Assembly: GCA_963831975.1 (NCBI GenBank) | Contig: CAWHSO010000025.1 | Coordinates: 1,576,120 to 1,640,119 of the forward strand | Direction: 5' to 3' | Origin: an uncultured Alphaproteobacteria bacterium | Lineage (GTDB): Bacteria > Pseudomonadota > Alphaproteobacteria > Rhizobiales > Xanthobacteraceae | Length of the DNA stretch: 64,000 bases | In this document: positions 40,659-64,000 of the stretch, in pieces | How the letters are laid out: the number at the start of each line of letters is the position of its first letter | Numbering within the stretch: the stretch's first letter is position 1 | Made by a program: the position numbers and the translations under genes | The notes under the pieces: model-generated | Seen by the model: only the letters and a program-made list of their open reading frames with translations | Told to the model about the DNA's origin: nothing | Database searches by the model: none

Positions 40659-40670
40659 GGGGAGGCGGAC

Positions 40671-42521: not shown

Positions 42522-42901
42522 ATGCAAAGCAAGAAAACTGGCGCCGTCATCGGCGCCGCGGCTGCCGTTGTTCTCGTGGCCGTCGCAGCAACGCCGGCGC
42601 GGCCGCCGACGCCGCCCACGGCAAGGTGGTGTTCCAAACCTGCGCCGCCTGCCACAGCGACAAGCCGGACGCCATCGGGCCGAGCCTGCGCGGCGTCTAC
42701 GGCCGCAAATCCGCAGCGCTTCCCGATTTCCGCTATTCCAACGCCATGATGCGCGCCAACCTCACCTGGGACGACGCCAACCTGAAGGCCTACATCAAGG
42801 ACCCGCAGGCCAAGGTGAAGGGCAACCGCATGCCGTTCGGGGGTTTAAGCAGCGATGCGGACATCGACGACGTCATTGCTTATCTGAAGGATTATAAATA
42901 G
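42522..42901 (+). CDS. Class I c-type cytochrome (monohaem), one frameshift in the signal region
   Basis: MQSKKTGAVIGAAAAVVLVAVAA signal, then GKVVFQTCAACHS (CxxCH) ... GNRMPFGG ... DDVIAYLKDYK. Confidence 0.85.
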
Positions 42902-42916: not shown

Positions 42917-45900
42917 TCATTTTGCCGAGGCAAACAAATTCTCGATCTCACCCATCAGCGGGTTGGTCAGCCCGGCCTTCCGCAACTGGGCAAAATCTTC
43001 AAGGATAGCCGTCTCCCAGGAATCCCCGTTCTGGTCAGCGAGCGTCTGTCCACGATATTTGAGATAGAGCGTCCGCGCCTCGTCGAGGCGCTCGAGCAAC
43101 ATGAGCGCGTGGGCGCGGTTCGCGTAGAGCCAAGTCTGGTCAGGCGCGACAGAGATGGCTTGGTCAACGGCTTCCAAGGCCGTCGTGAACTCGCCCGCGA
43201 GGACGAGATTGAAGGCCAAGCTGCCGATGTCGTTCACGCCAATTTGCAAATCGCGCTGCCAGCCGGCATTGCCGGGATCGGACTTCGCCAAGCGCTCCAT
43301 GATGACGAGGCTTGCCTGAAAGGTGGTCAACGCGGCCGACAGGTCGCCCTGCGCCATCTGCACGTTGCCGATCTTGTTGTACGAGACCGACAGATCGCGC
43401 TGCCAGCCGGCATTGCCGGGGTCGGACTTTGCCAAGCGCTCGGTGATGGCGTGGTTCGCCTGATAGGAGGTCAGCGCGGCCGAAGGGTTATCCTGCGCCA
43501 ACTGCACGTCGCCGATCTTATTGTACGCGACCGATAGGTCGCGCTGCCAGGCGGCATTGCCGGGGTCGGACTGCGCCAGGCGTTCCATGATGGCGAGGCT
43601 CGCCTGATAGGAAGCCAGCGCAGCCAAAAGGCTGCCCTGAACCATCTGGACGCTCCCGACTTTGTCGTAAAAAACCGACAGATCGTGTTGCCAGCCGGCA
43701 TTGCCGGGATCGGATTTAGCCAGGCGTTCCACGATGGCAAGGCCCGCCTGATAGGAGGTCAGCGCGGCCGGCAGGTTGTCCTGAGCCATCTGCACGTCGC
43801 CGATCTCGTTGTGCGAAACCGACAGATCGCGCTGCCAACCGGCATTGCTGGGATCGGACTTGGCTATGCGATCCCGGATGGCGAAGGCTTGCCTGATAGG
43901 AGGCCAATGCGGCCGGCAGGTTGCCCTGCGCCGCCTGCACGTTGCCGACTTTGTCGTAAGAAACCGACAATTCGCGCTGCATGCTCGGCAATGCCGGTAT
44001 CGGACCGCGCCAGCCGCTCCGCGATGGCGAGACTTCGCCTGATAGGAAGTCAGCGCGGCCGGCAGGTTGCCCTGCGCCGTCTGCACGTCGCCGATCTTGT
44101 TGTACGAAACCGACAGGTCGCCCTGCCAGCCGGCATTGCCCGGATCGGATTTCGTCAGGCGCTCCACGATGGTGAGGCTGTCCTGATAGGAAGTCAGCGC
44201 GGCCGGCAGATCGCCCTGTGCCATCTGCACGTCGCCGACCTTGTTGTGCGAAACCGATAGTTCGAGCTGCCAGCCGCCATTGTCCGGATCGGACTGCGCC
44301 AGCCGGTCTGTAATAGCGAGCGCCTCCCGATAGGAGGTCAGCGCGGCCGGCAGGTTGCCCTGCGCCACCTGCACGTCGCCAAGATCTTTGTACGCAGCCG
44401 ATAATACGTACTGCCAGCCGGCATTGCCGGGATCGGATTTGGCGAGGTGATCCCTGATGGCGAAGCTTGCCTGATAGGAGGTCAACGCGGCCGGCAGGTC
44501 GCCTTGTGCCACCTGCACGTTGCCGATCTTGTTGTACGCAACGGACCGATCGTATTGCCACATGGCGTTGCCGGGATCGGACTGCGCCAAACGGAAAATT
44601 ATTTCTCGCTTCGCTTCGTAGGACTTCAGTGCCGCGGCGAGGTCGCCCTTCGCCATCTGGATATCGCCGATCTTCTCGTTGCCGATCCCAATTTCACCTT
44701 GCCAGAGGACATTTCCGGGATCGGACTGCGCCAGGCGTTCGGCGATGGTCCGAGCCTCGTAGTTGGTCGCGAGCGCCGCGCCAAGATCGCCACGCTGCTG
44801 CGCAATGTCGGCGATGCCGAATTTTGCCAACGACAAGTTCACCGTCGTCGGCGCCCGGCTTCGCCGTTACGATCACGCGCGCGAAGGCGGCCCGCGCATC
44901 ATCGAGTTGCCCGGCTTGTTCCTGAAAAAAACCGTTCAGCAACATGCCATTGACGTTGGAGGGATCGAGGCGAGCCGCCTGCGCGAAATAATCCCGCGCC
45001 CGTGCAGGATTGGATATGCCGGCGATCGAAGCCAGGGTTCTATAGGCCGCCGCCGTAACCTTGGCGTCGTTGTCGGTGCGCTTTGCGCTGGCCTCGGCCA
45101 TTGCCTTCAACAACGGCTCCGCCTCGTCGGGCTTGCCGGCCTTGAGCAACGCCAGCGCTTGCGCATAGCGGGGGTCGGTCGCGGCGCCTTCGGCGATGGC
45201 CGTAATCGCTTCCGTCAGGTTTCGTTTGACGGCCGGAATCGCCGCCTGCGCCGGCGTGACGACATTGTATTTGTCGACCAACGCCGCGATCTGCGTTGAG
45301 CGTCTGCTTCTGCTGCTGCGATTGCCAGAACAGCCCACCTCCAAGGATAGCCAGCAACGCAATCACGGCGACAACGACGATGCGCAGCCGGGCCTGCCGC
45401 CGTCGCTCGCGCTCGGCGCGGCGATAAACGTCGTCAGCCGCAAGCCCGATGAGCCGTGCCACCACCTTGGCAAGCGCCAGCTCGAAGCCGTCGCCCGTCT
45501 CGCGCAGGTCGGCCGCCAGCACGTCGGCGGGCGTGGCGGTTATGGCGCCGTCCGGCGCAATCGCGAAGCGCAAGGCCGGCGGGAAGCATTCATTTTCGGC
45601 GTCCCCCGGCGTCCCGCCGATGATCAGCGGGATCACCGGCCGGTCGGGATGGCGCGACTTGAACAGCCGCACCTCGCCATCGACATATTTGCTGCGCGCC
45701 GCGTGCGGCGAAGCGATCAGGATCAACGCCGCTGAATTCATCGAGCGCCACACCGGTCTCCGCGCCCAGCGAAGCGCCGGCATCGAAGTCATTGCGGTCG
45801 CGAAAGATCGGCCGCAAAGCCTTCGGGATCGGTCCCGCCGGGGTGACGCGACCGACAAGCTCCTTGTCGATGTGGTAATCTTCGAGGCGACCGTGCACGC

Positions 45901-45970
45901 GTAGCGCCGTGCCGGTATCGACATGGCTGTAAGAAAGAAAGGCGCGATACTTGAGATCAGCGTTCGGCAT
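42917..45970 (-). CDS. TIR / TM / TPR-repeat protein (~1017 aa reconstructed), frame-disrupted (about five shifts)
   Basis: N-terminal TIR MPNADLKYRAFLSYSHVD ... ALILIASPHAARSKYVDGEVRLF. TM LRIVVVAVIALLAILGGGLFW. Then classic TPRs and about eleven 40-aa units LAKSDPGNAGWQRDLSVSYNKIGDVQ.AQG.L.AAL.SYQ. Confidence 0.8.
43190..44720 (-). repeat. About eleven tandem 120-bp coding repeats (40-aa TPR_10/12-like units) within the TIR-TM-TPR gene
   Basis: The recurring gccagccggcattgccgggatcggac...ctgcacgt(c/t)gccgat block has 120-nt periodicity. Confidence 0.8.
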
Positions 45971-46382
45971 GCGCGTCCTTCCCGGAACAGGCGCCGAGCC
46001 ATTGGATCCCCAAAGCAACATTAGCAGAAATTCTACCACGGCGCGAATAAAGCAACGGCGACATCTGGCAGCGGCCCGTTGGGAGCAGCGCGACCGCAGT
46101 GGATCACTGCTTCAGTTGCGCAATTCGCTTGGCAAGCTCGCCGGGTATCCACGCGTTTTCTGTCCCGCGGAGAAGCCGGCTGACGACATTTCCATCCGTG
46201 TCCACCGTGCTTTTAGTGCGCCCCGGCAGCGTGCCGGTTCAGGCCGCCGGGAGGCCACGCCGGCCGGGCTGCCGAACGGCCGATTGGCCGGGCCATTTCA
46301 GCCATAGAAAAGCCGCGCCGGATCATGTAGAGACCGCCGCGGCTGCCTATATGAAGCGCGGGCGGCGGAGCGGAAATCATCG

Positions 46383-46792
46383 ATGCTGAGTGTCATTATC
46401 GTCATCCACCTCATGCTGGTCCTCGCCTTGATCGGCGTCGTGCTGCTGCAAAAGTCCGAAGGCGGCGGACTGGTCAGCTCGACCAGCGGCTTTATGACCG
46501 GCCGCGGCACGGCGAACGTGCTGACGCGCACGACGGCGTTGCTGGCCGCAGGCTTTTTCGTCACCAGCCTGTTGCTGTCGTGGATGGCGGGTTTTGAGCG
46601 CAAGCCGACCTCGATCATCCACACCGGCGGCGCGCCGGCCCAGGAAGCGCCCTGGCGCGCCGCCGCGCAGCGCCGCTCAGTCAGCGGCGGCGGCGGCGTT
46701 CTCGACCAGATCGAGGCAAGGCGCCGGGCGGCACCACGGCGCCGGCGCCGGCTCCGGCGCCGAGCGGGCCGCAAGTGCCGCAGTCGAAATAG
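46383..46792 (+). CDS. secG: Preprotein translocase subunit SecG, C-terminal tail frame-disrupted
   Basis: MLSVIIVIHLMLVLALIGVVLLQKSEGGG ... TRTTALLAAGFFVTSLLL. Expected tail ...APSGPQVPQSK with stop at 46790-46792. Confidence 0.85.
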
Positions 46793-46986
46793 GCGACTGC
46801 GCTACCGCATTGAAGGCTGCATGAGCGGGCCGTGCGACGACTTTCGGCGTCGCCTGAGGATTTCGGTTGAAGTCCTATGAAGTCAAGCGGTTTTATGGCG
46901 TCGGCTGGGCTGATTCACGATGCGCGGCAGATATTCCGGAAAATCGCTCGTCGAATCGTGTGGCGGGCGCTAAAGCGTTAAGTCCC

Positions 46987-48615
<1,629 letters not shown>

Positions 48616-48737
48616 TAGCATCGTCACGTCCGATTGTCCCAGCTCACATCGCAGATTGACGCTTGGTAAACTTGCCAGCCGCCGGCATCAGCATCTCGGC
48701 ATGACAAGTCATCGCAGAGGAACTCCATGATCTAGAA

Positions 48738-49052
48738 ATGCGCATCTATCGCCTGCATCCCCGGCCGGCTGCCGGCGCTGCTCAAGCGTTCGAGGAGCAC
48801 ACGCTGAAAATCTGGGACAAGCACGGCATCAAGCAGGCCGGTTTCTGGACCGTGCTGGTCGGCGACGGCAGCCAGGACCTGCATTACATGCTGGCCTGGG
48901 AATCGCTCGCCGACCGCGAGAAGAAATGGAACACTTTCCAGGCCGATCCGGCTTGGCACAAGGCGCGCGACGAGAGCGAGAAGGACGGGCCGATCATCGC
49001 CAATATCAAGAGCGCGTTCCTGCGGCCGACGGCGTTCTCGTCGGTGAAATAG
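48738..49052 (+). CDS. NIPSNAP family protein
   Basis: Intact 104-aa [11 protein letters not shown] ... [20 protein letters not shown] ... [26 protein letters not shown]. Confidence 0.7.
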
Positions 49053-49105
49053 CAGGCCGGTTGACCCGACCGCCGCGGCCCTCATGGTCGCCCGCGAGGA
49101 CGCCA

Positions 49106-49943
<838 letters not shown>

Positions 49944-49957
49944 GGCATCGCCGTTCG

Positions 49958-51150
49958 GTGCGCCGCGCTTCATCGCCAACAACGAGATTTCGCCATTCCC
50001 CCCGTCCTCAAAGTCGTCAGCCTGGTGGTCTTCGCCTCGACGCTGTTTTCGCGCGCGGTCGATCCGGTGATTCCGAAAATCGCCGCCGATCTCGGCATCG
50101 ACGTGAAGACCGCGGCGCTGCTGTCGACGGCGTTCACGTTTCCCTACGCCATCATGCAGCCTGTGCTCGGCACCATCGGCGATTTCTTCGGCAAGACCCG
50201 GCTGATGAATGTCAGCCTCGCCGTCGTGGTGACGACGACGTTGGTCTGCGCTTTCGCCAGCAATTTCTCGTGCTGGTGGCCATGCGCATCATCGCCGGCA
50301 TGTGGCCGGCGGCATTTTTCCGGTCGGCATGGCGATCGTCGGCGATCTTGTGCCGGTGCAGGCGCCAAGTGGCGATCGGCCGGCTGCTTGCCGTCGGCCT
50401 CACCGGCAATCTGATCGGCGCCACGATCTCCGGCGTGATCGGCGATCTGCTCGGCTGGCGCGGCGTGTTTTTCTCCATCGGCGGCGTTCGGCCTGATCGT
50501 CGCCGTGATCGCCTTCTTCGCCTTTCGCGGGCTGCGCCCGGCAAGCCGAAGCCGTTCAATCTTGCCGCGGTGGCGCCGGCTTTCGGGCGTGTTCGCCGAT
50601 CCCCGCGCCAAGATCTGCTTCGGCTCGGTGTTCTTCGAAGGCATCGTCATCCACGGCATGTTTCCCTACGTGGCGCTGCTGCTGCTGGCGAGCGGCGAGA
50701 CGCACTCGTCCTATGCCGGCATCGTGATCGCCGCGTTCGGTCTCGGCGGCATTTTGTATTTCGCTGTCGCTGCCGTTTCTGGTCGTGCACGTGACCGAGC
50801 GGCAAATGATGCTGACCGGCGCGGCCTGCGCCGCATCGCCTTCATCCTGATCTCGTTCAACTTGGCCTGGTACATCCAGGCGGCGGTGTTCGTGCTGTTC
50901 GGCGTCGGCTTCTACATGCTGCACAATTGCATCCAGGTTCACGTCACCGATCTGACGCAGACCGCGCGCGGCGCCGCGCTGTCGATGCATTCGTGGTCGT
51001 TCTTTTCCGGCCAGGCGATCGGGCCGATCTATTACGGCTATGCCTTCAGCCATTTCGGCATCAGCGTGCCGCCGCTGCTCGGCGCCGCCGTGATCATCGT
51101 CATCGGGCTCGTCTGCGCGCGGCTGCTGCGGCACCGGCGGCCGATACCCG
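49958..51150 (+). CDS. MFS transporter, frame-disrupted (at least four shifts); the 3-prime end is uncertain
   Basis: LVVFASTLFSRAVDPVIPKIAADLGI ... FPYAIMQPVLGTIGDFFGKTRLM ... 12-TM-type hydrophobic pattern across ORFs 50025-50414, 50302-50496 and 50505-51281. Confidence 0.7.
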
Positions 51151-51189
51151 GGCCTTGCCGAAGGGCGGTAAAAGCCCCATTATATGGCT

Positions 51190-51275
51190 GCATCGGCCAG
51201 GGGTGCCGCGCAACAGAGGCGCGGCTGAGATCAAACCCATCGAACCTGTCTGGGTCATTCCAGCGAAGGGAGCCG
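51190..51275 (+). promoter_or_regulatory. TPP (THI-box) riboswitch upstream of thiO-thiS-thiG
   Basis: ccaGGGGTGCcgcgc...gcgcgGCTGAGAtcaAACCCatcGAACCTGtCTGGgTcATtCCAGCGaAGGGAg matches the conserved THI-box core (GGGGUGC / CUGAGA / ACCC / GAACCUG / CCAGCG.AGGGA). Confidence 0.85.
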
Positions 51276-51277
51276 CG

Positions 51278-52439
51278 TTGACGGACCACTCGCCCCATAT
51301 CGGCAAAAAGCCGCGCGTCGCCATCATCGGCGCGGGCGTCGTCGGGCTTGGCATCGCCTGGCGGCTCGCCGGCCGCGCGGCGGTCACGGTGTTCGATCGC
51401 GGCAAGGCCGGATCGGGCGCGAGCCATGCCGCGGCCGGCATGCTGGCGGCTTGCTGCGAAGCCGAGCCCGGCGAGGAGGCGCTGGTCGCGCTCGGCCGCG
51501 ACAGCCAGGCGCGCTGGCCGGGCTTTGCCGAAGAGCTTTTGCGCGCGAGCGGCATTGACGTCGAATTGCGGCGCGAGGGCACGCTGGTGCTCGCCTTGAC
51601 CGCGGACGATCAGGCCGAGATCGCGCATCGGCTGGAGTTTCAGCGGCGGCTCGATCTGCCGCTCGAATGGCTGTCGGCCGCGGCGACACGCGCACGAGAG
51701 AGCCGCATCTGGCCGGAAAAATCGCCGGCGCGCTGTTTTCGCCGCAGGACCATCAGGTCGACAACCGCAAGCTGGTGCGGCGCTGCGCATCGCCGCCGAA
51801 GCGGCCGGCGTGAAAATTCACGAGCATCGGCCGGTCAAGGAAATTCTCGTGCAAGGCGGCCGGGCGACGGGCGTCGTGTTCGAAGACGGCACGACCGAGC
51901 CGCGCCGATATCGTGGTGCTCGCCGCCGGCGCCTGGTCGCGCAGCATCGGCGGATTGCCGCCGGATCGGCGGCCGCCGGTGCGGCCGGTCAAGGGCCAGA
52001 TGCTGGCGCTGCGCATGGATGCCGCGGCGCCGCTGCTCAATCACGTGCTGTGGGCGCCGGGCGCCTATCTGGTGCCGCGCCGCGACGGCCGGCTGATCGT
52101 CGGCGCCACGGTCGAGGAAAAAGGTTTTGACGACACGATCACCGCCGGCGGCGTGATGGCGCTGCTCGATGCCGCGTGGCGCGCGATGCCGGCGGTCGAG
52201 GAATTGCCGATCGAGGAAATCTGGGTCGGCCATCGGCCGGGCAGCCGCGACGATGCGCCGATCCTCGGCCCGGTCCGCTCGATGGCTTGTTTTATGCCAC
52301 CGGCCATCACCGCAACGGCATTTTGCTGGCGCCGGTGACGGCGGACGCGATGGCGCGGCTCATGCTCGACGATGTCGTCGAGCCGGCGATCCGGCCGTTC
52401 GGCCTCGAACGTTTTCTGCCGGCGCGGGCGGCCGAGTAG
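51278..52439 (+). CDS. thiO: Glycine oxidase ThiO, frame-disrupted (at least four shifts)
   Basis: RVAIIGAGVVGLGIAWRLAG (FAD fold) ... VRPVKGQMLAL ... LFYATGHHRNGILLAPVTA. Putative TTG start. Confidence 0.85.
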
Positions 52440-52450
52440 GGGAGCAGGCG

Positions 52451-54447
<1,997 letters not shown>

Positions 54448-54463
54448 TCGCTGCGAAGCAGAG

Positions 54464-55483
54464 TCACTCCAGCATCTCCCGCACCAGCGGCATCACCTTG
54501 GTGCCGTAAAGCTCGATGCTGCGCATCAGCTTGTCGTGGGGCAGGGTGCCGGAGCTGTACTTCATGTCGAAGCGCGCGATGCCGAGCGCCTTTGCGGTCG
54601 CGGCGATCCGGCGCGCCACGGTCTCCGGCGCGCCGACATACAGCGAGCCGCCGTCGGCCTCTTGGTCGAAATGCGCCCGCGTCACCGGCGGCCAGCCGCG
54701 CTCGGCGCCGATGCGGTCGCGCATGCCCTTGTGGTGCGGCCAAAGCTCTTCGCGGGCCTGCGCGTCGGTGTCGGCGACATAGCCGTGGGAATGCAGGCCG
54801 ATGGGTTTTGCGGGGCGGCCGAGCTGCGCATAGGCGCGCTTGTAGAGGTCGATGAAGGGCATGAAACGCCGCGGATCGCCGCCGATAATAGCCAGCATTA
54901 ACGGCAGGTCGTAACGTGCGGCACGGACAACGGATTCCGGGCTGCCGCCGACGCCGATCCAGGTCTTGAGCGGCGGCTTTTCCAGCGGCGGGAAAACTTG
55001 CTGGTTGACGAGCGGCGGCCGCAGCCGGCCTTGCCACGTCACCGGCTCCTGCTTGAGCACGGCCGCGAACAGATCGAGCTTTTCCTCGAACAGCGCCTCG
55101 TATTGCGCGAGATCGAAGCCGAACAGCGGAAACGACTCGGTGAACGAGCCGCGCCCCAACGTCACCTCGGCGCGCCCGTTCGAGGCGGCGTCGACCGTGG
55201 CGAAGCGCTCGAACACGCGAATGGGATCGTCAGACGACAGCACCGTCACCGCCGAACCGAGCAGGATCCGCTTGGTGCGCCCGGCGATGGCCGCGAGCAC
55301 GACCTCGGGCGCCGATATGGCGAAATCCGGACGATGGTGCTCGCCGACGCCGAAGGCATCGATGCCGAGCCGGTCGGCCAGCACCGCTTGCTCGATCACC
55401 TCGCGGATGACCTGGGCGTGGCTGTTGAGTCGGCCATCGGGGCCGACGGTGATATCGCCGAATGTATCGAGCCCGAAGTCCAT
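54464..55483 (-). CDS. LLM-class (luciferase-like) flavin-dependent oxidoreductase
   Basis: Intact 339-aa ORF. MDFGLDTFGD ... LADRLGIDAFGVGEHH ... typical LLM TIM-barrel pattern. Confidence 0.85.
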   Translation of the reverse strand: MDFGLDTFGDITVGPDGRLNSHAQVIREVIEQAVLADRLGIDAFGVGEHHRPDFAISAPEVVLAAIAGRTKRILLGSAVTVLSSDDPIRVFERFATVDAASNGRAEVTLGRGSFTESFPLFGFDLAQYEALFEEKLDLFAAVLKQEPVTWQGRLRPPLVNQQVFPPLEKPPLKTWIGVGGSPESVVRAARYDLPLMLAIIGGDPRRFMPFIDLYKRAYAQLGRPAKPIGLHSHGYVADTDAQAREELWPHHKGMRDRIGAERGWPPVTRAHFDQEADGGSLYVGAPETVARRIAATAKALGIARFDMKYSSGTLPHDKLMRSIELYGTKVMPLVREMLE

Positions 55484-55597
55484 GGGTATGCGTCAACCAG
55501 GATGTTCTTCAAGAAACCAGGATTGTCGCCGAGGCGTTCAACGCAGCGCTGCGGCCGCAACGGGGCCAAATGCCGAATGCGCAAGCGAGACGGCCCC

Positions 55598-55638
55598 GCT
55601 GAAAAGCAAACGAGGCGCCGCCAACAGCAGCGCCTCGT
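55598..55638 (-). terminator. Rho-independent terminator downstream of the lanthipeptide precursor gene
   Basis: On the minus strand: perfect 9-bp stem ACGAGGCGC / GCGCCTCGT followed by TTGCTTTTCA. Confidence 0.7.
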
Positions 55639-55708
55639 GCGCGATGTCGTCAACCCGACCAGTCATCAGAGGCAAGATGATGAAGTCAGGAGCAGTCCGA
55701 TGAGCCGG

Positions 55709-55855
55709 TCAGGCCGGGCAGACGGACAAGCCCGAGCAATAGGCCAGCGTATAGCCGGCCTTCTCGCTGCCGGCCGCGGCCTCCAGGGCCTCGTCGGAGA
55801 CGTCATAGGCGGGAAGCTCTTCAATCTGGTCGAGGCCGATCGTAGCGTCGTTCAT
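55709..55855 (-). CDS. Candidate class II lanthipeptide precursor peptide (48 aa)
   Basis: MNDATIGLDQIEELPAYDVSDEALEAAAGSEKAGYTLAYCSGLSVCPA. Acidic leader and a Cys/Ser/Thr-containing C-terminal core. AAGGA RBS ~9 nt upstream of the ATG. It has its own terminator and is divergent from the LanM gene 194 nt away. Confidence 0.65.
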   Translation of the reverse strand: MNDATIGLDQIEELPAYDVSDEALEAAAGSEKAGYTLAYCSGLSVCPA

Positions 55856-56048
55856 GACATTGATCCTTTTGTTCGCTGGTGGCGTCGGCAAATAGGAGAA
55901 GAAATTGCTGTAACGCCCCCACGCGGAACTCATTTAATCATCGGCTGCGGCTGGTGTAAAGTGTAGGCGGAGATGTCGCAGGCGGTTGATCTATCGAGAT
56001 AAATCGGAAATTTTCGCAATCAATTTTCGCCTGTTGACGGCGAGTTTG

Positions 56049-59000
56049 ATGCACGACGAGAGCAATCGGATGGACGCATTTTACGAGCGGCTCGCGGTTC
56101 GGGCCGCAACGGTGGACGAAGTCCTGTCCGACGATTTCGAGCCGTTGCCCGGGCAGAAGGGCGACGCCGATTTGGCCGGGCGGCGGCTTGCCGCTTGGTG
56201 CCGCGCCTGCGCCAGCGGCGACTGGTCGCTGTTCGGCCGGCGGCTGATCGAGACGGCTTGGCGTTCGCTCAGGTGCTGGCAAGACTAGCCGCCGTCCGCC
56301 GCGTTTCTGCCGCTCTGCCAACATGGGTCGAGGACGCGGTCTGGGTCGAAGCGGCTTTGCAAGACACCTGCGGCGATGCCAAGCGGTCGCCGGCATCCGC
56401 CAATGCCGACCCTTGCGCGTTCGAGCAGCTGTTCACGTCAGTGGTCAAGAGGCCGACACGCGGCTTTGGTCGGGTCTCGATGCGCGCGTCGGCGATAACT
56501 TGAACGAATCCGCTCGCGCGTGTTGCGCTCGGCGTTGCGCAGGAGCTTTCCAGCCTCGGTACGCCGGCGCTCTATGAGCGTTTCGCCAAGGCGCGAAATG
56601 CCGATTCATCGCAACACGATGCCGCGGCTACGGCGCGGATAACGGCAGTCGCGCTACGATCGGTTCATTGCCGAAATGAAAGCTGGCGGTTTTCGGCGGC
56701 TGTTCGAAGACAAACCGGTGCTGTTGCGGTTGTTCGCGACGTCACGCGGCAGTGGATCGATACGTCGCGTGAAATCGTCTTGCGTCTCGATGCCGATCTC
56801 GCGGTGATCCGCCGCGATATCCTCCATTCCGGCGACGCCGGCCGCGTTGCCGAGATTCGAAGGCGATCTTTCCGATCCGCACAACGACGGCCGTTCGGTC
56901 CGGATCGTGAGCTTCGAGGACGGCGCGCGGGTCGTCTACAAGCCAAAGGATTTGCGGCTCGATGCCGCCTGGCACGCGGTGGTCGAGCGCTTGAACGGGT
57001 CGAGCCGCCGATCGAGCTCAAAGCCGCGCGCACGATCGCGCAAGACGGCTACGGCTGGACCGAATTCATCGATCATGCGTCGTGCGCCGATCGCGGAGGG
57101 CTGCGCGCGATTTTTCCGGCGCGCCGGCGGCTGGCTCGCGCTGTTTCACTGTTTCGCCGCAACCGACATGCATCAGGAGAACATGATCGCTGCGGCGATC
57201 ACCCGGTGCCGATCGATCTGGAAATGATTCTGCAAGCCGGCGCCGAAGAGCGCAACGGCGAAGCCCGGAGGATGCCGCCTTTGACGCCGCCACCGAAATC
57301 GTCGACAATTCGGTCACGCTGGTCGGCTTGCTTCCCGCCTATGGGCGCTCTCCCGACAACAACGTCTTTGCCATCGGCGGCATGACCGCGGACTGGATCG
57401 CCAGAACGGAAATCAGTGGGACAAAATAAACTCCGACGCGATGCGGCCGGCGAAATTGAAAGAAGCCGCCAAGACCAACCCCAATCTGCCGCACGTCGCC
57501 GGCCGTAACGCCAAATTCGGCGATCATATCGACGATTTCGTCTCGGGCTTCGAGGACTACGCGAAATTCCTGTTGCGTCATGGCTGTGGCGCAGGGCGGG
57601 CGCTGTTCGACGGCTTTGCCGGCCTTCCCGTCCGCAAGATCATGCGCCCCACCCGGTTCTACTACATGCTGCTCCAGCGCCTGAAAAACCATCGGACCAT
57701 GGACGACGGCGTGTCTGGTCGGCGCAGGCCGATTTCATCGCCAGGCTGGCGGAGTGGGAAAGGATTCCGATCCGGTTTGGCCGCTGCAGCGCGCCGAACG
57801 GTCGCTCTCGTCGCGCTGAACGTGCCGCATTTCGTGTCGCCGAGCGACAGCGACGAGATCCGCGATGCGGCCGGCGTCTCGGTGCGGACCGAGGCGACTT
57901 CGGGCATGGACCGCGCGCGGTCGCGAGTTCGAGAGTTTCGACGAGCAAGACATCGCCTGGCAGATCGAGGTCATCCGGGAGAATACGAATTCGTCCGGTT
58001 TCGCCAAGCCCAAGACGGCGGCGCGCCGGAACGCTCGACAAGAAACTCCACGCCGGTGCCGGTGTCGCGCCGACAAAAGAGATTTTCCTCGCAGAAGCCG
58101 ACAAGATCGCCGCGGAGCTGTCCGGTCGTGCGATCCGCCGCGGACCGGGCGCGGCGTGGATCGGCCTCGATTGGCTGGGCGACGCCGAGGTTTTCCAGCT
58201 CGTGTGCCTGGGTCCGGATCTGTACAACGGCTTTCCGGCATCGGGGTCTTTCTTGCCGCACATGCGGCAGTGACCGGCGCAGGGCTTCGGCCGAGCTTGC
58301 GCCGGGCTGCGCAATCTACGCAAGAATCTGAAAGGCCGGAACGCGGCGCGCATGGCCCGCTCGCTCGGCCTCGGCGGCGCCACCGGACTGGGCTCGATCG
58401 TCTATGCCTTGACGGTGATGGCGAAATACCTCCATGACGAGGACTTGCTCGCGGATGCCCACGGCGGCGGAACTGTTCACCGACGACCTGATTGCGGCGG
58501 ACAAGCAGTTGGACGTCATCGGCGGCAGCGCCGGCGCCATACTCGGCCTGCTTCGGCTTTATCGCGACACCCGATCCGGCGACGTGCTCGGCCGCGCCAC
58601 GAAGTGCGGCGAGCACTTGCTCGGCCAGCCGGCTCGGGCCGAAGGGCCGCCGAAGTTGGGTCGGGCAAGGCTCCGGCCCGCAAGCGCTCAACGGCATGTC
58701 GCACGGCGCGGCCGGCTTTGCCTATGCGCTCGCCTCGTTGGCGGCGGCGACGGGGCGCGAGGAATTTGCGCAGGCCGCGTCGGAATGCATTGCATACGAA
58801 AATTCGAGCTACGACGCGGAGCGCCACAACTGGCCCGATTTGCGCGCCGGCGGCGAGCCGTCGTGGCCGTCTCAGTGGTGTCACGGCGCGCCCGGTATCG
58901 GTCTTGCGCGCATTGCCACGACCAGACTGCGCGGCATGGATGACGCACGCTCTGACAACGGATATCCGCAACGCCGTCGAGGCGTCGAGCGAGGCTGGCC

Positions 59001-59269
59001 CGCCCGCGTCGATACGCTGTGCTGCGGCACGCTCGGCAGCATCGAGTTTTTCTGCGAGGCCGGCGACGCGCTCGGCCGCAACGATCTTCGTGAGCTGCAT
59101 CGCGGCGGCTGACGGCGGTTTTGCAAACCGCAGCCGCAACCGGCGATTACCGATGGAACAGCGGAAAAAGGCAATTCAATTGGGCTTATTCCGCGGCCTT
59201 GCCGGCGTCGGCTACACCCTGTTGCGCCAGAGTCGACGTTCGCTGCCCAACGTCCTGATCTGGGAATAG
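56049..59269 (+). CDS. Class II lanthipeptide synthetase LanM (DUF4135 dehydratase + LanC-like cyclase), ~1073 aa reconstructed, heavily frame-disrupted as assembled
   Basis: Dehydratase motifs GDLSDPHNDGRSVRIVSFEDGARVVYKPKDLRLD, FAATDMHQENMIAA and PVPIDLEMILQ. Cyclase motifs SHGAAGFAYAL, WCHGAPGIGLARI, LCCGTLGSIEFF and GLFRGLAGVGYTLL. About ten frame changes. Confidence 0.85.
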
Positions 59270-59301
59270 CCGAAGCCGGAGCGCGAAGCTTATCGCGAAC
59301 G

Positions 59302-59818
59302 CTATTGCGGCTTCGCCGCGCGCACGATGCGGTGAGCACGGCCTTGAACATATCGAACGATTGGACTGCACCTGACAGCTCGTCGAGGGATCGAGCGCAA
59401 CGTGAATGACGTCGCCCGCGGCCGCCGCTTGCTGCTTGCCGTTGATGTTGAGGTTAATCCCTCGTTCGCGGGAGAGCCGACCAATCCAATGGTCAAACGG
59501 CCGTCGGCGACGATCATCGATTGATTGGGATTGATGTTATAGATGTTCTTGCGCCGGCATGATCGCTCCAACGTGGCCTGAACACTCGTAAGATCGGCCT
59601 GCAGCGAGGTGAGATTCGCGGTTTGATCGGCTATATGCTTCGAGCGTCTGGCTTTCGGTCTGCAGTTGCTGGATCGGCTGCTCGCGCAGCGCGATATCGC
59701 GGGCGGTGAAGTTGCGGCCCCAAAAATAGCCACTGACCATGAAAAACAGGACCAGAACGATGACCAGCAGGGCTGCCAGACGGCTGCGCGGTGCTGGGTC
59801 GTTTTGTCGGATGCTCAC
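59302..59818 (-). CDS. Hypothetical membrane-anchored coiled-coil protein (~170 aa), frame-disrupted; the 3-prime end is uncertain
   Basis: MSIRQNDPAPRSRLAALLVIVLVLFFMVSGYFW (TM), coiled-coil ...QQLQTESQTLEA / IADQTANLTSLQADLTSVQATLE, then beta-rich ...IVADGRLTIGLVGSPANEG. Confidence 0.45.
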
Positions 59819-59853
59819 GGTGACCTCTGCCCGTTCGTAAAGCGCTCACGCGT

Positions 59854-61138
59854 TTACTGTTTCGGCTCGGCTCCGGCATCGGTCCGGACCGGATCCAGCC
59901 GCGGAAAGGCGGCGTAGAGCCGGGACAGGATGGCTTCGACTCGGTCATTCCGAAGGGGCTCGATGCGCCCGGCGTCGCGGTTCGGATGCGAGCGGCGTGC
60001 CGGCGATTGCGCCAACCTTGCCGGCCCGGTCGCTCCGCCGCCGGTTGGCGCCGCGCCGGGCGACGCTTTCGCTCGGGCCCGGCGGCGCTGCCGGCGGCGG
60101 TGCGCGCCGTTTGCCGGCCGGGCTGCGGCGTTGCCGGGGCCCGGCCGGCGTATCGACATTGCCGAGAATGATCGGCAGGCCATCCTTGCCGCTGCCGATG
60201 ATCACGATTTTCGCATTCGGGGATTGCGCGAGCTCCAGCGTGGCCTCGATGCCGCGCCAGCGCAGATACGAATCCGAAATCCCCTGGCTGACGGTGCGCT
60301 GGAAGGCGGCGATGCCGTCGGCCTCGATCTGCTTGCGTTTGGACTCCTCGGCTTCGCGCTCGACGCGGAATTTGTACTCCTGTATCCGTAGAATTGCTCG
60401 GTCTGGCGATTGATGGCGGCAACGATGTCGGGCGGCAATTCGATGCTGAGCACGAGCGTATCGAGAATCTGGATCGAGTTCTGCAGGAAGTCGTTGTAGT
60501 GCTTCGGGTCCGGCTGCTCCATGGCCTCGGGCTGGACCAATTTGTTGAGATTGGCGCCCAGGCTCTTTTGCGCGTTGTCGCGGATTTTCTTCTGAATCGC
60601 CTCGCGCGACGTATAGACCTCTTGGGCCGTGTACTGGGAAATGACCTGACGCGCCTGGCTGCCGATTTCGGGACCGACGACCGATCGCCAGGTATCCCGG
60701 ACCGATGAATTTGTGCAGCACGCCGATGGAGTTGTGCAGCAGTTGATACCGCACGCTGATCTGGGCGGTCACGTTCACGCCGTCCTTGGAAATGGCGTTG
60801 TATGTCTGTGTCGCGGATTGCAGCCGCAGGTCGTAAAGGAACAGCTTGTCCCACGGCCAGATGATGTGGAGACCTTCCTCCCGCAATTCGCGGGGATCGA
60901 GGACCGTGCCGCGCCCGACAAAGCACCAGCAGTAAAGATCGAAGCCGTTGAATCGCTTCCACAGCACGCCGACCTGCCCGCTCGGGACCGTAATCACCAC
61001 GTAAGGCCACAGCACGATGGCGATAGCAGCAGCCACCATCAACATGACGGAAAGGCCCGGCAGATGGCGCCCGATAAAACGCCAGAGCCCGCGCTCGCGG
61101 CGGCGGCGGCTTTTATCGAGGGATTCTCGAATATTGCC
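59854..61138 (-). CDS. SPFH/band-7 (prohibitin-HflK/C-like) membrane protein, frame-disrupted
   Basis: TM LSVMLMVAAAIAIVLWPYVV, then ITVPSGQVGVLWKRF ... LHIIWPWDKLFLYDLRLQS ... AISKDGVNVTAQISVRYQL ... and later RWRGIEATLELAQSPNAKIVIIGSGKDGLPIILG. Confidence 0.75.
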
Positions 61139-61139
61139 A

Positions 61140-62816
61140 TCAGCCGTTCTCCATCGGAACGCTATCATCAGCCCTATTCATCGAACGTTGCTCGACAATA
61201 CGGCCTTCGTCCATGCGGATCCTGCGCGCCGGCACATGGAGCTCGTCGAGATAGCGGTCATCGTGGGTGATGACCACGACGGTGGCGCCGGCTTGCATCA
61301 ATTCGGGCAGCAGTTCGTCGTAGAATTTGCGTCGAAATTCGGGATCTTGTTCGGCCGTCCATTCGTCCAGCAGGAGGATCGGACGTTTCTCGAGCAAACT
61401 GACGATCAGCGCGAGACGTTTGCGCTGGCCGTCGGAAAGATCGAGCGTGCGAAACTCGCCGTTCGATCAGCCCGGTCTTGTCGGCCAAGCGGAATTGCGT
61501 CAGCAGGCGCTCGAATTCGCCCGGCTCCGGTTCGGGAATCCCATAGAGCCGCCGGAAGAGATGATAGTCGGAGAAAATCGTCGAGATCAACGCGCGATAC
61601 TCGTCGCGCGTATCTGTCGTTGACGCGCATGCCGTCGAGCATGATTTCGCCTGAATTCGGCGGAAAAAGCCCGGCGAGCACCCTCATGAATGTCGATTTT
61701 CCCGATCCGTTGCCGCCGGTGATGAAGACCAGCTCGCCGGGCCGCAAGGTGAAGTCTATCGGCCCGATCTTGAAGGCGCTGTCGGAAAATTTGTCGACGT
61801 ATCGGAACACGATATGGCGCATCTCGATCTTGTCGAAACGCTTCGCCACCGTGACGTCTGGCGCCGCTGGGCGGGGCGGCCGTCGTGCTCAGCAATTTTT
61901 CCAACTGGTCGATCCGGTCCGCCGCGGCGTTGGCATTCAGCAGGATCGGAATCGATTGCACCAGGCCAAAGCACGCCCCGACGACGAACAACAGCGCCGT
62001 CGTGGTCTTGGCGATCGACGGACCCCCGAGCGAGTCGCTGAGATGGGGAGCACGAAGACGACGGCGCCGAGCAGGACATACATCGAGATCTGCGACGTCA
62101 CGATCATCCTGAAAGTTTCGGCCTGGGTGCGTATCTTGATGTTGGCGGCGGTTTTCGACACTTCGAAGGCGTCGTCGAACAGATCGGCGCTGCGCGCGCT
62201 GTTGAGCCTCACTTCCTTGAAGCCATCCAGAAAATCGGTCAGCCGGTCGAACAGACGGCGTTCCCAGGCCGCCGACTCCGCTTTTTGCGCGCTCAGGCGG
62301 CGGTTCTTCATATGGAATATCGTCCCGCGCCTGCCGACGATGACGAAAGTCATGACGAAGGCCGTAAACGACAAATACGCCACGTAGAGTCCGACGAAAC
62401 AGATAAGGACGGCGCCCTGCACGGTGAAGCCGAGCATATTGCTGGCTTGCGTCAGGATCGCGGTATCGCTGGTGATCGCAGCGACGATTCGGGCGCGCCC
62501 GATCTTTTCAAGCTCCAGAAGCTCGGAGCGCCTGTATTTGATCCATCAGGCGCAGGCGGAGTTTGTGGATGATGCCCTCGATCTCGGCGGTGGCCGTGAT
62601 GGTGACGTACGCTTGCGTCTTCATGAACAAAAACAGCGCAACCAGAAACAGCGTCGCCGCCCACAGGCCGGGCTTTTCCCCGGCGGTCGCGCTCTGCATG
62701 CCCGCATTGATGGCGGCGAGGATCGAAGCGTTGCTGATGCCTCCCAGGGCGGACATGAACAGCAGCTTCGGCAGCGAGCCGTGCATTTCGCGGCGAACGA
62801 GACGGAGGAAGGACAT
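61140..62816 (-). CDS. Cyclic-peptide-export-type ABC transporter (fused permease/ATPase, YojI/SyrD/PvdE-like), frame-disrupted
   Basis: N-terminal TMD MSFLRLVRREMHGSLPKLLFMSALGGISNASIL.... NBD FTLRPGELVFITGGNGSGKSTF (Walker A), ...LSDGQRKRLALI (signature, recoverable) and ILLLDEWTAEQD (Walker B). No C39 peptidase domain recognised. Confidence 0.8.
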
Positions 62817-62861
62817 GAGTGTGACGTCGTCCGTTTACGCTTCCACAAGACGCCGGCCGGC

Positions 62862-63149
62862 TCAGTGAGGATGCGCTTGCCGGCCCCAGTAAGACTTGCA
62901 CGACGGTCGGCGACGCCATTCGACGCGGCGCGATGGGCCGGTGAGCAGCAGGACGGGCAGTACCACCAACGGCGTGGTGACAAGCGCGAGGCGAAACGTC
63001 CCGAAAAAGCCCATGCGGCGGCTGATGCCGCAAAGTCCGGTGAGAACGCAGAAGACGAGGTAGACGATGGCTTCGAGCATGGGCTCGATCTCGTCGGTCA
63101 GCGGCTGTTGCGCTTCCGCGGTTGGAACCACTCCCCGATTGGCTGGCAT
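62862..63149 (-). CDS. Hypothetical small membrane protein (start at 63149 or 63080)
   Basis: MLEAIVYLVFCVLTGLCGISRRMGFFGTFRLALVTTPLVVLPVLLLTG, two TM helices. Located between the DUF697 and ABC genes on the same strand. Confidence 0.4.
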   Translation of the reverse strand: MPANRGVVPTAEAQQPLTDEIEPMLEAIVYLVFCVLTGLCGISRRMGFFGTFRLALVTTPLVVLPVLLLTGPSRRVEWRRRPSCKSYWGRQAHPH

Positions 63150-63162
63150 ACGCCCGTGCGAG

Positions 63163-63704
63163 TCAAGAGCCGGCGTCGCCCCGACGTGCTGCGCGCCGGC
63201 GCTGCGAACGCTTCGATCGGGAGTCCCACATTTCCTTTTGCGCCTTGACGAACTCGCGATAGTCCGGCGGATTGAAATCGAGCAGCGTGCCGCCCGATTC
63301 AAAGTGCTGAATGAACGCCTTGCCGATGGCATAGGTGGCGCCGGCGGACAGCACCGGCATCACAAAGGCCGACGCGAGCATGCCGAGGATCGGCACGCCT
63401 TGAGCGCGCTGGCGGCGCCCATGCCGCTGGTCGCCGGGATCATCGTGCCGGCGAGGCTGGCGATCAGCGCCTTGCCCCGATTTTCGGAGAACTCCACGTC
63501 GTAGATTTGCGAAATGCGGCGCAGCATCTGAACCTGCAATCCGCCGACTGCGAGCACGTCGAGAACCGGCATCGGGATCAAGTCCGGCGACGCCGGACCA
63601 TATGGCGAAGCGATCGACCAATTTGGAAGCCGTCTCATGGCGCTGCTCGGGCGTCGCCGCCGTGGCTTGGCCGGTCTCGGGACTTCTGTCGATTGCTGTG
63701 CCAT
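63163..63704 (-). CDS. DUF697 (YcjF-like) membrane protein, frame-disrupted
   Basis: KLVDRFAIWSGVAGLIPMPVLDVLAVGGLQVQMLRRISQIYDVEFSENRGKALIASLAGT ... GVPILGMLASAFVMPVLSAGATYAIGKAFIQHFESGG, reconstructed from two frames. Confidence 0.6.
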
Positions 63705-63893
63705 AGCAGATCCTTTCTCGCCACTTCCGCTCGTGCCCGCCACTCGATCGAGCCGATTGCAATTGAATTATGCGCTTGTTCGACGACGGATAATCAACGC
63801 TATCACGGCGGTTGGCCGGTGCCAAGCGCTTGCAATAGCTGTGAGTTTAGCCGCACTTACGACTTACATATCGATGCATCGCGTCGCTATCGT

Positions 63894-64000
63894 TTAAGAG
63901 CGCGATCCCACTTTGGCTGCTTTGTCGGCATCCCACCACCAGACCGTGGGAAACGCGGAGACGCCGTATTTCGGCATCGGGTCGGGATGGCCGAATCGAT
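63894..64000 (-). CDS. 3-prime end of an unidentified gene running off the window
   Basis: Open frame ...RFGHPDPMPKYGVSAFPTVWWWDADKAAKVGSRS-stop. Too short to classify. Confidence 0.3.
   Translation of the reverse strand, partial: RFGHPDPMPKYGVSAFPTVWWWDADKAAKVGSRS

What the first reader, a model, noticed from the sequence alone, without database searches (positions are those of the whole stretch)
55598..59269. Class II lanthipeptide locus (LanM + divergent 48-aa precursor) in an alphaproteobacterium
ORF fragments on the plus strand reconstruct a ~1073-aa LanM.
- Hallmark dehydratase motifs: DPHNDGRSV, YKPKDL, TDMHQENMIA, PIDLEMIL.
- All LanC-type cyclase zinc/acid-base motifs: SHGAAG, WCHGAPG, CCGTLG.

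The precursor gene lies 194 nt upstream on the other strand. It is a 48-aa ORF with a good RBS and its own strong terminator. The leader is acidic (DQIEELPAYDVSDEALEAAAG) and the core SEKAGYTLAYCSGLSVCPA holds 2 Cys and 4 Ser/Thr, enough for two (methyl)lanthionine rings.

Characterised lanthipeptides are overwhelmingly from Firmicutes, Actinobacteria and cyanobacteria. A rhizobiales-type product with this core would probably be new chemistry.
Basis: partly seen in the sequence, partly recalled or inferred. Interest (0 to 1): 0.75.

Follow-up and report, generated by a model that had tools for sequence, protein, structure and literature searches.

The report
Soil alphaproteobacterial lanthipeptide gene pair
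This is a real gene pair for a small ring-closed peptide (a class II lanthipeptide) from an uncharacterised family that is widespread in soil Xanthobacteraceae, and the many breaks in the enzyme gene in this copy look like sequencing errors rather than gene decay.

Summary
A 48-aa ORF (55709-55855, minus strand) lies divergently upstream of a LanM gene (56070-59269, plus strand). The LanM gene is readable only in pieces.

After frame correction the LanM is 1072 aa.

The small ORF is a genuine precursor:
- Homologues sit next to the LanM homologue in 75 of 82 loci.
- T36, C40, G42 and C46 are invariant and residue 41 is always Ser or Thr. This predicts two adjacent rings, T36-C40 and S41-C46.
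- More than 5,000 protein clusters match the precursor profile. Every name shown among the 120 best is "hypothetical protein".

LanM carries about 35 frameshifts, and the whole block 56.06-64 kb carries about 100. Three results argue against decay:
- There is no in-frame nonsense codon in 7.4 kb.
- dN/dS is 0.2, the same as between intact orthologues.
- Unrelated genes elsewhere in the window are also frameshifted.

I therefore read the indels as assembly errors on a functional allele, with about 0.8 confidence.

This is a new member of a known kind. It is a good target for characterisation, but it is not new chemistry in principle and not a surprise to specialists.

The parts
55601..55638 (-). 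Terminator-like hairpin after lanA: 13-bp stem at 55638-55610, then TTGCTTTT.
   Evidence: One search found it in the scan. One search shows it conserved in relatives with compensatory stem changes (for example GGCGCT/GGCGCC in the window against GGCGTC/GACGCC in L001).
55709..55855 (-). lanA, a 48-aa precursor: MNDATIGLDQIEELPAYDVSDEALEAAAG | SEKAGYTLAYCSGLSVCPA. The leader is roughly residues 1-29 and the core roughly residues 30-48. The cleavage site is inferred.
   Evidence: locate the ORF and its L001 counterpart. Homologues are found in 75 of 82 loci. T36, C40, G42 and C46 are invariant. The motif T-x3-C-[ST]-G-x3-C holds in 118 of the 120 best database hits. The identical peptide is listed in 106 blocks of the collection. 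dN is 0 and dS 0.20 against L082.
55864..55868 (-). AAGGA ribosome-binding site, 8 nt before the lanA ATG.
   Evidence: Read from the sequence. AAAGGA is conserved in all eight aligned loci.
55932..55960 (-). Promoter-like element TTTACA-N17-TTAAAT upstream of lanA. It would give a 5' UTR of about 70 nt.
   Evidence: Read. CTTTACA and GATGATT.AAT are conserved across genera, including L005 and L010. The tool's stricter consensus scan did not call it. The role is inferred.
56070..59269 (+). lanM, a class II lanthipeptide synthetase, 1072 aa after frame correction. An alternative ATG lies at 56049. About 35 frameshifting indels interrupt it. The dehydratase (DUF4135) domain covers roughly 56.8-57.8 kb and the LanC-like cyclase roughly 58.3-59.27 kb.
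   Evidence: Searches identify the pieces. One search gives the indel list, no internal stop codon and about 80% amino-acid identity to L002. One search gives dN/dS 0.21-0.23. One search gives 752.9 bits on TIGR03897. One search finds LicM2 (6st5) and CylM (5dzt) as the nearest solved structures.
59319..59818 (-). Gene for a 173-aa protein with a predicted N-terminal membrane helix and a coiled-coil-like region. It is frameshifted here. No family was assigned.
   Evidence: maps it by tblastn. One search gives only a sub-threshold Pfam hit. It lies near LanM in 58 of 81 loci. One search counts 10 frameshifting indels and no nonsense codon.
59857..61168 (-). SPFH/Band 7 membrane protein gene, about 430 aa, frameshifted here.
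   Evidence: PF01145 at 1.5e-23 on the L001 orthologue. Position. Near LanM in 50 of 81 loci. 23 frameshifting indels and no nonsense codon.
61176..62816 (-). ABC exporter gene, 547 aa, of the cyclic peptide export type, with no C39 peptidase domain. It is frameshifted here.
   Evidence: TIGR01194 at 318.7 bits, cut-off 286.2. Position. 10 frameshifting indels, no nonsense codon, dN/dS 0.20.
62913..63080 (-). Small hydrophobic protein of about 57 aa. Two membrane helices are judged by eye.
   Evidence: It is conserved next to the ABC gene in 26 of 81 loci.
63223..63743 (-). DUF697 protein gene, about 178 aa, frameshifted here.
   Evidence: PF05128 at 3.6e-19 on the L001 orthologue. Position. 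Near LanM in 50 of 81 loci.

Best explanation
The locus is a class II lanthipeptide gene cluster of a conserved, uncharacterised family from soil Xanthobacteraceae.

Proposed mechanism:
- lanA encodes a 48-aa precursor. Its leader carries the family motif (E)EILx[FY][ED]VSDEALExAAG. Its core carries the invariant pattern T36-x3-C40-[S/T]41-G42-x3-C46.
- The LanM N-terminal kinase-like domain phosphorylates Thr36 and Ser41, and possibly Ser30 and Ser44. It then eliminates phosphate to give Dhb and Dha.
- The Zn-dependent LanC-like domain adds Cys40 and Cys46. This gives two adjacent rings, a methyllanthionine 36-40 and a lanthionine 41-46.
- The peptide is then probably exported by the neighbouring cyclic-peptide-type ABC exporter. 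The leader is removed by a protease that is not encoded in the cluster.

The roughly 35 frameshifts in lanM, and about 100 in the block 56.06-64 kb, are most likely indel errors of a noisy assembly laid over a functional allele. That allele is somewhat more divergent than its flanks.

Shown: the gene identities, the conservation and the selection signature. Inferred: the ring topology, the cleavage site, export, and intactness in the living organism.
For: Identity of the locus:
- LanM domains and motifs are present.
- The frame-corrected protein scores 752.9 bits on TIGR03897.
- Intact 1072-1090-aa orthologues occupy the same synteny.

Precursor:
- It is conserved beside LanM in 75 of 82 loci.
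- The invariant residues are T36, C40, G42 and C46, and residue 41 is always Ser or Thr.
- The identical peptide occurs in many samples.

Indels as artefact:
- There are 0 internal nonsense codons in 7,377 nt of frame-corrected coding sequence. The chance that a random substitution creates a stop is 0.022. Neutral divergence of 4% or more is therefore excluded at P = 0.0015.
- dN/dS is 0.20-0.24 in the block, against 0.08-0.25 between intact orthologues.
- ThiG has 5 frameshifts but dN/dS of only 0.05-0.07.
- The gluconate 2-dehydrogenase subunit 3 and GMC oxidoreductase genes at 40-42.4 kb are also split between frames.
- L085, a related metagenome contig, shows the same signature at lower density: frameshifts in several genes, no nonsense codons, low dN/dS.

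Exporter: TIGR01194.
Against: - No read data or second assembly of this strain was available, so the intact state is not observed.
- The indels are patchy. There are none in 53456-55508 and about 100 in 56058-64000. Uniform read error would not give that pattern.
- The same block also has about twice the synonymous divergence and a moderately raised dN/dS compared with the relatives. No closer LanM allele turned up among 5.8 billion proteins. Some real relaxation of selection, or a chimeric consensus, cannot be excluded.
- The indels are not in homopolymers. That does not fit the commonest long-read error mode, although L085 shows the same kind of indel.
- The ring pattern and the leader cleavage site rest only on conservation.
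- No leader peptidase is seen in the cluster.
Confidence: 0.75

Rival explanations
1. The cluster is truly dead in this organism. lanM and the downstream genes for the 173-aa protein, Band7, the ABC exporter, the 57-aa protein and DUF697 are pseudogenes riddled with real indels. Only lanA is still intact.
For: - LanM has 35-37 frameshifts, and the block has 100-110 gap openings against each of 11 relatives.
- The damage is confined to one contiguous functional block, while the adjacent LLM and TctC genes are clean.
- Window-private changes at sites where five relatives agree reach 6-11% at codon positions 1 and 2, against about 1% in the flanks.
- lanA lacks this excess.
Against: - There is no nonsense codon in 7.4 kb of frame-corrected sequence. 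At the 5-10% neutral divergence that about 100 natural indels would imply, 8-16 would be expected.
- dN/dS is 0.2, not near 1.
- The excess substitutions are about three times denser at synonymous than at non-synonymous sites.
- Unrelated genes such as ThiG, GMC oxidoreductase and the gluconate dehydrogenase subunit also carry frameshifts without decay.
Confidence: 0.15
2. The block 56.06-64 kb is a chimeric or collapsed consensus of two or more co-occurring strains in a metagenome assembly. Neither its extra divergence nor its indels then belong to any one real genome.
For: - The change in identity is sharp, from about 90-91.5% in the flanks to 82-83.5% in the block, against all 11 relatives.
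- The relatives are about 90% identical to each other in the block.
- No closer allele exists in the protein database.
- Nearly all relatives come from metagenome assemblies, many with metaFlye-style contig names.
Against: - This cannot be told apart from natural recombination of a divergent allele combined with low coverage.
- A consensus of functional alleles would explain the selection signature, but it does not by itself explain 1.3% indels.
- This rival is a variant of the artefact explanation, not a different biology.
Confidence: 0.07
3. The 48-aa ORF is not the LanM substrate. It is a conserved small protein of unrelated function, and the true precursor lies elsewhere.
For: The peptide has no hit in Pfam or NCBIfam. 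No biochemical data exist.
Against: - It is adjacent to LanM in two different gene arrangements and across genera.
- It has a leader-plus-core architecture with invariant Cys and Ser/Thr.
- In some loci the same leader is joined to different Cys-rich cores, or is present in 2-3 copies. That is typical of lanthipeptide precursors.
Confidence: 0.03

Closest known systems
Class II lanthipeptide synthetases (LanM; TIGR03897). The nearest solved structures are LicM2 (PDB 6st5) and CylM (PDB 5dzt).
   Same: - It is a single polypeptide of about 1070 aa with an N-terminal DUF4135 dehydratase domain and a C-terminal LanC-like cyclase domain.
- The motifs DMHxEN, DLE, SHG, WCHG and CCG are all present.
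- It scores 752.9 bits, against a cut-off of 304.
   Different: - It is only distantly related to the characterised enzymes: E = 3e-67 to LicM2 and 1.9e-25 to CylM.
- It belongs to a clade found mostly in Xanthobacteraceae, among 230 species-level genomes that encode a relative.
- No member of that clade was found described in the papers searched.
Lanthipeptide precursors with double-glycine-type leaders (lacticin 481 or mersacidin-type LanA; NHLP and Nif11 leaders of ProcM-type systems).
   Same: - It is a short acidic leader ending in a small-residue pair (…SDEALEAAAG). From my own knowledge, this resembles the ELxxBxGG consensus.
- The core is rich in Cys, Ser and Thr, and the gene lies next to lanM.
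   Different: - It matches no Pfam or NCBIfam model.
- The leader ends in AG, not GG, GA or GS.
- No C39-peptidase LanT transporter is present in the cluster.
- The core is unusually conserved across the family, unlike the hypervariable prochlorosin-type cores.
- It has no mersacidin-type TxS/TxEC lipid II motif (from my own knowledge of that motif).
Cyclic peptide export ABC transporters (TIGR01194).
   Same: The 547-aa fused permease-ATPase next to the cluster scores above that family's cut-off.
   Different: It is not a LanT/LanFEG-type lantibiotic transporter. Its link to the lanthipeptide rests on conserved neighbourhood only: 28 of 81 loci within the flanks that were fetched.

Membership tests
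LanM, class II lanthipeptide synthetase (TIGR03897) | Whole-protein score above the curated cut-off on the family model | tested here: met
   The frame-corrected translation scores 752.9 bits against a cut-off of 304, matching model positions 2-929 of 932. The intact orthologue in L002 scores 764.8 bits.
LanM, class II lanthipeptide synthetase (TIGR03897) | N-terminal DUF4135 dehydratase domain with kinase-like catalytic motifs | tested here: met
   PF13575 hits on three fragments. DPHNDG, YKPKD, TDMHQEN and PIDLE are present. Which residue does what is taken from knowledge of CylM and was not tested here.
LanM, class II lanthipeptide synthetase (TIGR03897) | C-terminal LanC-like cyclase with Cys/Cys/His zinc ligands and an acid-base His | tested here: met
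   PF05147 at 1.9e-22. SHGAAG, WCHGAPG and CCGTLG are present.
LanM, class II lanthipeptide synthetase (TIGR03897) | A single uninterrupted reading frame in this sequence | tested here: not met
   35-37 frameshifting indel runs. Judged to be a sequence artefact on the evidence, but the intact gene is not observed.
LanM, class II lanthipeptide synthetase (TIGR03897) | Dehydration and thioether cyclisation of the cognate LanA | not testable with these tools
   This needs co-expression and mass spectrometry.
Lanthipeptide precursor (LanA) | A small gene next to the synthetase, conserved with it across genomes | tested here: met
   75 of 82 loci, nearly always divergent and immediately upstream of lanM.
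Lanthipeptide precursor (LanA) | Leader-plus-core architecture with conserved Cys and Ser/Thr in the core | tested here: met
   T36, C40, G42 and C46 are invariant, and residue 41 is always Ser or Thr.
Lanthipeptide precursor (LanA) | Membership of a described precursor family (Pfam or NCBIfam lantibiotic, NHLP or Nif11 models) | tested here: not met
   No hit at E <= 0.01 in Pfam or E <= 1 in NCBIfam. The names shown for database homologues are all "hypothetical protein".
LanT-type bifunctional transporter/protease | ABC transporter with an N-terminal C39 peptidase domain in the cluster | tested here: not met
   The only ABC protein is 547 aa, of the TIGR01194 type, and has no peptidase domain.
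Pseudogene / decayed cluster | Neutral substitution pattern (dN/dS near 1, nonsense codons) accompanying the frameshifts | tested here: not met
   dN/dS is 0.20-0.24 and there are 0 internal nonsense codons in 7,377 nt.

The most novel reading that the evidence does not exclude
The LanA/LanM pair, together with the neighbouring SPFH, DUF697 and cyclic-peptide-exporter genes, is a vertically inherited, near-core system of soil Xanthobacteraceae. Its almost invariant two-ring peptide would serve a physiological or signalling role, for example a membrane- or envelope-directed function like the morphogen SapB. It would not be a classical, fast-diversifying antibiotic. That would make it one of the most abundant unstudied RiPPs in soil.
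Probability: 0.2. Interest if true: 0.6.

Novelty: new member of a known kind. Interest (0 to 1): 0.4.

Why it matters
No lanthipeptide of this family, or from Xanthobacteraceae, was found described in the papers searched. Yet the precursor family matches more than 5,000 protein clusters in public metagenomes. Every name shown for them is "hypothetical protein", so annotation misses the substrate.

The identical 48-aa peptide recurs in several independent metagenome samples (ENA and JGI), with an invariant ring-forming pattern. That makes a concrete, cheap target. Co-expressing one peptide with one intact orthologous LanM would define the structure of a very common soil RiPP.

For this particular window the practical message is different. 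The sequence quality is patchy, and the broken lanM should not be scored as a pseudogene without reads.

Tried and rejected
- Plasmid collection, megablast of 55500-59400: no match.
- Pfam and NCBIfam on the 48-aa and 74-aa ORF: no family.
- Rfam on 53-64 kb: nothing.
- A simple GC3 phase-change count per 2 kb was too coarse to locate frameshifts. A segment-wise coding-score map plus Pfam on the pieces replaced it.
- Exact look-up of the window's 339-aa LLM protein, meant to find the source contig or a second assembly: not on record. None of the six contigs carrying the identical LanA is the same strain: 82-83.5% identity in the block.
- Homopolymer or motif explanation for the indels: rejected. 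25 of 39 window-private 1-bp deletions lie in no run, and the deleted bases are evenly spread.
- Uniform random substitution noise as the cause of the block's extra divergence: rejected. The excess is about three times denser at synonymous sites, and there are no nonsense codons.
- The longer 74-aa reading of the small ORF: rejected. Its ATG sits inside the conserved -10-like element, and relatives conserve the downstream Met and RBS.
- Literature searches for lanthipeptide with Bradyrhizobium, Xanthobacteraceae, Pseudolabrys, Hyphomicrobiales, Rhizobiales or Alphaproteobacteria found no description of this family. General surveys only note LanM clusters in Proteobacteria.
Full report
**1. What is in the sequence**

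On the plus strand between 55986 and 59269 there is no long ORF. There is instead a chain of fragments in all three frames.
- The fragments hit the two LanM domains, DUF4135 and LANC_like.
- They also hit the NCBIfam model TIGR03897, "type 2 lanthipeptide synthetase LanM".

Upstream on the minus strand lies a 48-aa ORF at 55709-55855: MNDATIGLDQIEELPAYDVSDEALEAAAGSEKAGYTLAYCSGLSVCPA.
- AAGGA lies 8 nt before its ATG.
- A terminator-like hairpin lies about 70 nt after its stop.

**2. Relatives**

A search with a stitched N-terminal half of the LanM found hundreds of homologues. The sources that name them call them LanM.

One syntenic metagenome contig, L001, has this gene order: ThiS-ThiG-…-TctC-…-luciferase-like oxidoreductase (LLM)-48-aa ORF-LanM-173-aa protein-Band_7-ABC-56-aa protein-DUF697-SBP_bac_5.

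A scan of one genome per species found 230 genomes that encode a relative. The best 80 are almost all soil and peat Xanthobacteraceae MAGs (Pseudolabrys, Undibacter and unnamed lineages). They also include Bradyrhizobium neotropicale BR 10247 and a Methylocystis MAG.

Intact LanM genes of 1072-1090 aa are present in several of them.

**3. The small ORF is the precursor**

An iterated profile search of all small ORFs in the fetched loci found a homologue in 75 of 82 loci. It is nearly always divergent and immediately upstream of lanM. Most of the remaining loci lack the upstream flank.
- The leader carries a strongly conserved motif, (E)EILx[FY][ED]VSDEALExAAG.
- The core carries T36, C40, G42 and C46 as invariant residues, and residue 41 is always Ser or Thr.
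- Among the 120 best database hits, 118 have exactly [FYWM]-T-x3-C-[S/T]-G-x3-C plus a short tail. Residue 41 is Ser in 61 and Thr in 57. The Ser at position 44 is replaceable.
- Some loci have two or three copies, or the same leader fused to other Cys-rich cores. That is typical of lanthipeptide precursors.
- A profile search gave 5,189 protein clusters at E <= 0.001 among the 8,000 candidates scored. In the 120 listed, every name a source gives is "hypothetical protein" and none has a Pfam domain. Some of the weaker hits may share only the leader.
- The window's exact peptide is listed in 106 blocks of the assembly collection. It occurs in ENA and JGI metagenomes, always in the same synteny.
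- Against relatives the gene shows dN = 0 with dS about 0.2.
- Upstream there is a conserved TTTACA-N17-TTAAAT element and a conserved RBS. The terminator stem shows compensatory changes.

**4. The frameshifts: decay or artefact?**

Codon-wise alignment to intact orthologues counts 35-37 frameshifting indel runs in lanM. Most are 1-bp deletions.

The whole block 56058-64000 (lanM, the 173-aa gene, Band_7, ABC, the 57-aa gene, DUF697) has 100-110 gap openings against each of 11 close relatives. The adjacent 53456-55508 stretch (TctC, LLM) has none, and 50.5-53.4 kb has about 20.

The block is also more divergent than its flanks:
- Nucleotide identity is 82-83.5% in the block against 90-91.5% in the flanks.
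- The relatives are about 90% identical to each other in the block.

Taken alone, this looks like a dead cluster, but four results argue against that.

(a) After frame correction there is not one internal nonsense codon in 7,377 nt of coding sequence. With the observed spectrum, 2.2% of random substitutions would create a stop. Neutral divergence of 4% is therefore excluded at P = 0.0015, and 8% at P = 2e-6. About 100 natural indels would normally be accompanied by several hundred neutral substitutions. That ratio comes from established knowledge of bacterial pseudogenes, not from a tool.

(b) dN/dS of the window against relatives is 0.20-0.24. This is in the range of intact-against-intact pairs, 0.16-0.23 for LanM. 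The block's excess divergence is about three times denser at synonymous sites.

(c) Frameshifts also occur in unrelated genes.
- ThiG has five, with dN/dS of only 0.05-0.07.
- The gluconate 2-dehydrogenase subunit 3 and GMC oxidoreductase genes at 40.2-42.4 kb are split between frames.

(d) A related metagenome contig, L085, shows the same signature at lower density. It has non-homopolymer 1-bp indels in LanM, LLM and ThiG, no nonsense codons and low dN/dS.

My reading is as follows. The block is a somewhat more divergent but functional allele. It arose either by natural recombination or by a strain-specific, low-coverage or chimeric part of a metagenome assembly. The indels are consensus errors.

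What remains unexplained is the patchiness and the moderately raised dN/dS. No reads were available. I put about 0.8 on an artefact of some kind and 0.15 on real decay.

**5. How it most likely works**

This section is inference from the LanM family.
- The kinase-like domain phosphorylates and eliminates at Thr36 and Ser41, and perhaps at Ser30 and Ser44.
- The zinc cyclase domain adds Cys40 and Cys46.
- Conservation argues for two adjacent rings, 36-40 (MeLan) and 41-46 (Lan, or MeLan in the relatives that have Thr at 41).
- The leader probably ends at AAG29. The variable linker (S/T)(x)EKAG that follows could instead be part of the leader.
- There is no C39-peptidase transporter. The neighbouring ABC protein belongs to the cyclic peptide exporter family TIGR01194.
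- The SPFH/Band 7 protein, the 173-aa membrane/coiled-coil protein, the 57-aa hydrophobic protein and DUF697 accompany LanM in 50-58 of 81 loci, in two different arrangements. They may serve export or self-protection, but that is only a neighbourhood argument.

**6. Comparison with what is known, and novelty**

The enzyme is a bona fide LanM by every sequence criterion. The precursor belongs to no described family.

Surveys already record LanM clusters in Proteobacteria (PMC11251773; PMC7268733). I found no paper on this family or on lanthipeptides from Xanthobacteraceae.

It is a new member, in fact a large unannotated family, of a known kind. The chemistry predicted is standard. The unusual points are the abundance in soil data and the near-invariant core.

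Interest is moderate. It is a well-defined target for characterisation, but the copy in this window is not itself usable without sequence correction.

Noticed in passing
window 40199-42419 (+): The gluconate 2-dehydrogenase subunit 3 gene is split between two frames near 40434. The following GMC oxidoreductase gene is spread over at least five frame pieces, and a cytochrome c gene follows at 42584-42874. This shows the frameshift problem is not confined to the lanthipeptide block.
   Followed up: partly
window 52680-53445 (+) and 50486-52650: ThiG carries two pairs of +1/-1 indels (52795/52858 and 53336/53343), yet its dN/dS is only 0.05-0.07. The ThiO/MFS region also has about a dozen indels relative to L001.
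   Followed up: partly
window 56058-64000 versus 45724-56042: There is a sharp mosaic. The flanks are 90-91.5% identical to 11 relatives with dS about 0.23. The block is 82-83.5% identical with dS 0.32-0.54. This fits recombination of a divergent allele or a chimeric metagenome consensus. The cause is not resolved.
   Followed up: partly
L001 18400-18760 and beyond (outside the window): Two genes typical of lasso-peptide maturation (Transglut_core3, then an asparagine synthase-like protein) lie just beyond the SBP_bac_5 gene that follows DUF697. A second RiPP cluster may therefore adjoin this one in relatives.
   Followed up: no
window 55932-55960 (-) and 55856-55931: A TTTACA-N17-TTAAAT promoter-like element and a G-rich 5' UTR of about 70 nt upstream of lanA are conserved across genera. 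The ATG of the longer 74-aa ORF lies inside the -10-like hexamer.
   Followed up: partly
L025, L010, L044, L028, L029, L038, L068, L040, L043: Some relatives have two or three precursor copies, some of them downstream of lanM. Others join the same leader to quite different Cys-rich cores. Bradyrhizobium neotropicale (L073) has the LanM with a divergent precursor and lacks the Band_7/ABC/DUF697 neighbours.
   Followed up: no
L085 (ENA ERZ25039522 contig_92142): This metagenome contig of the same lineage has frameshifts in LanM, LLM, ThiG, DAHP synthase and CTP synthase. It has 112 gap openings against L082 over 19.6 kb. It is an independent example of indel noise in this kind of data.
   Followed up: yes
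window 56007-56054 and the lanA-lanM spacer: The lanA-lanM intergenic region is about 200 nt in the window and in L001, but about 400 nt in L002, L082, L084 and L087. The window also has 25-nt and 18-nt segments near the lanM start that L001 lacks.
   Followed up: no
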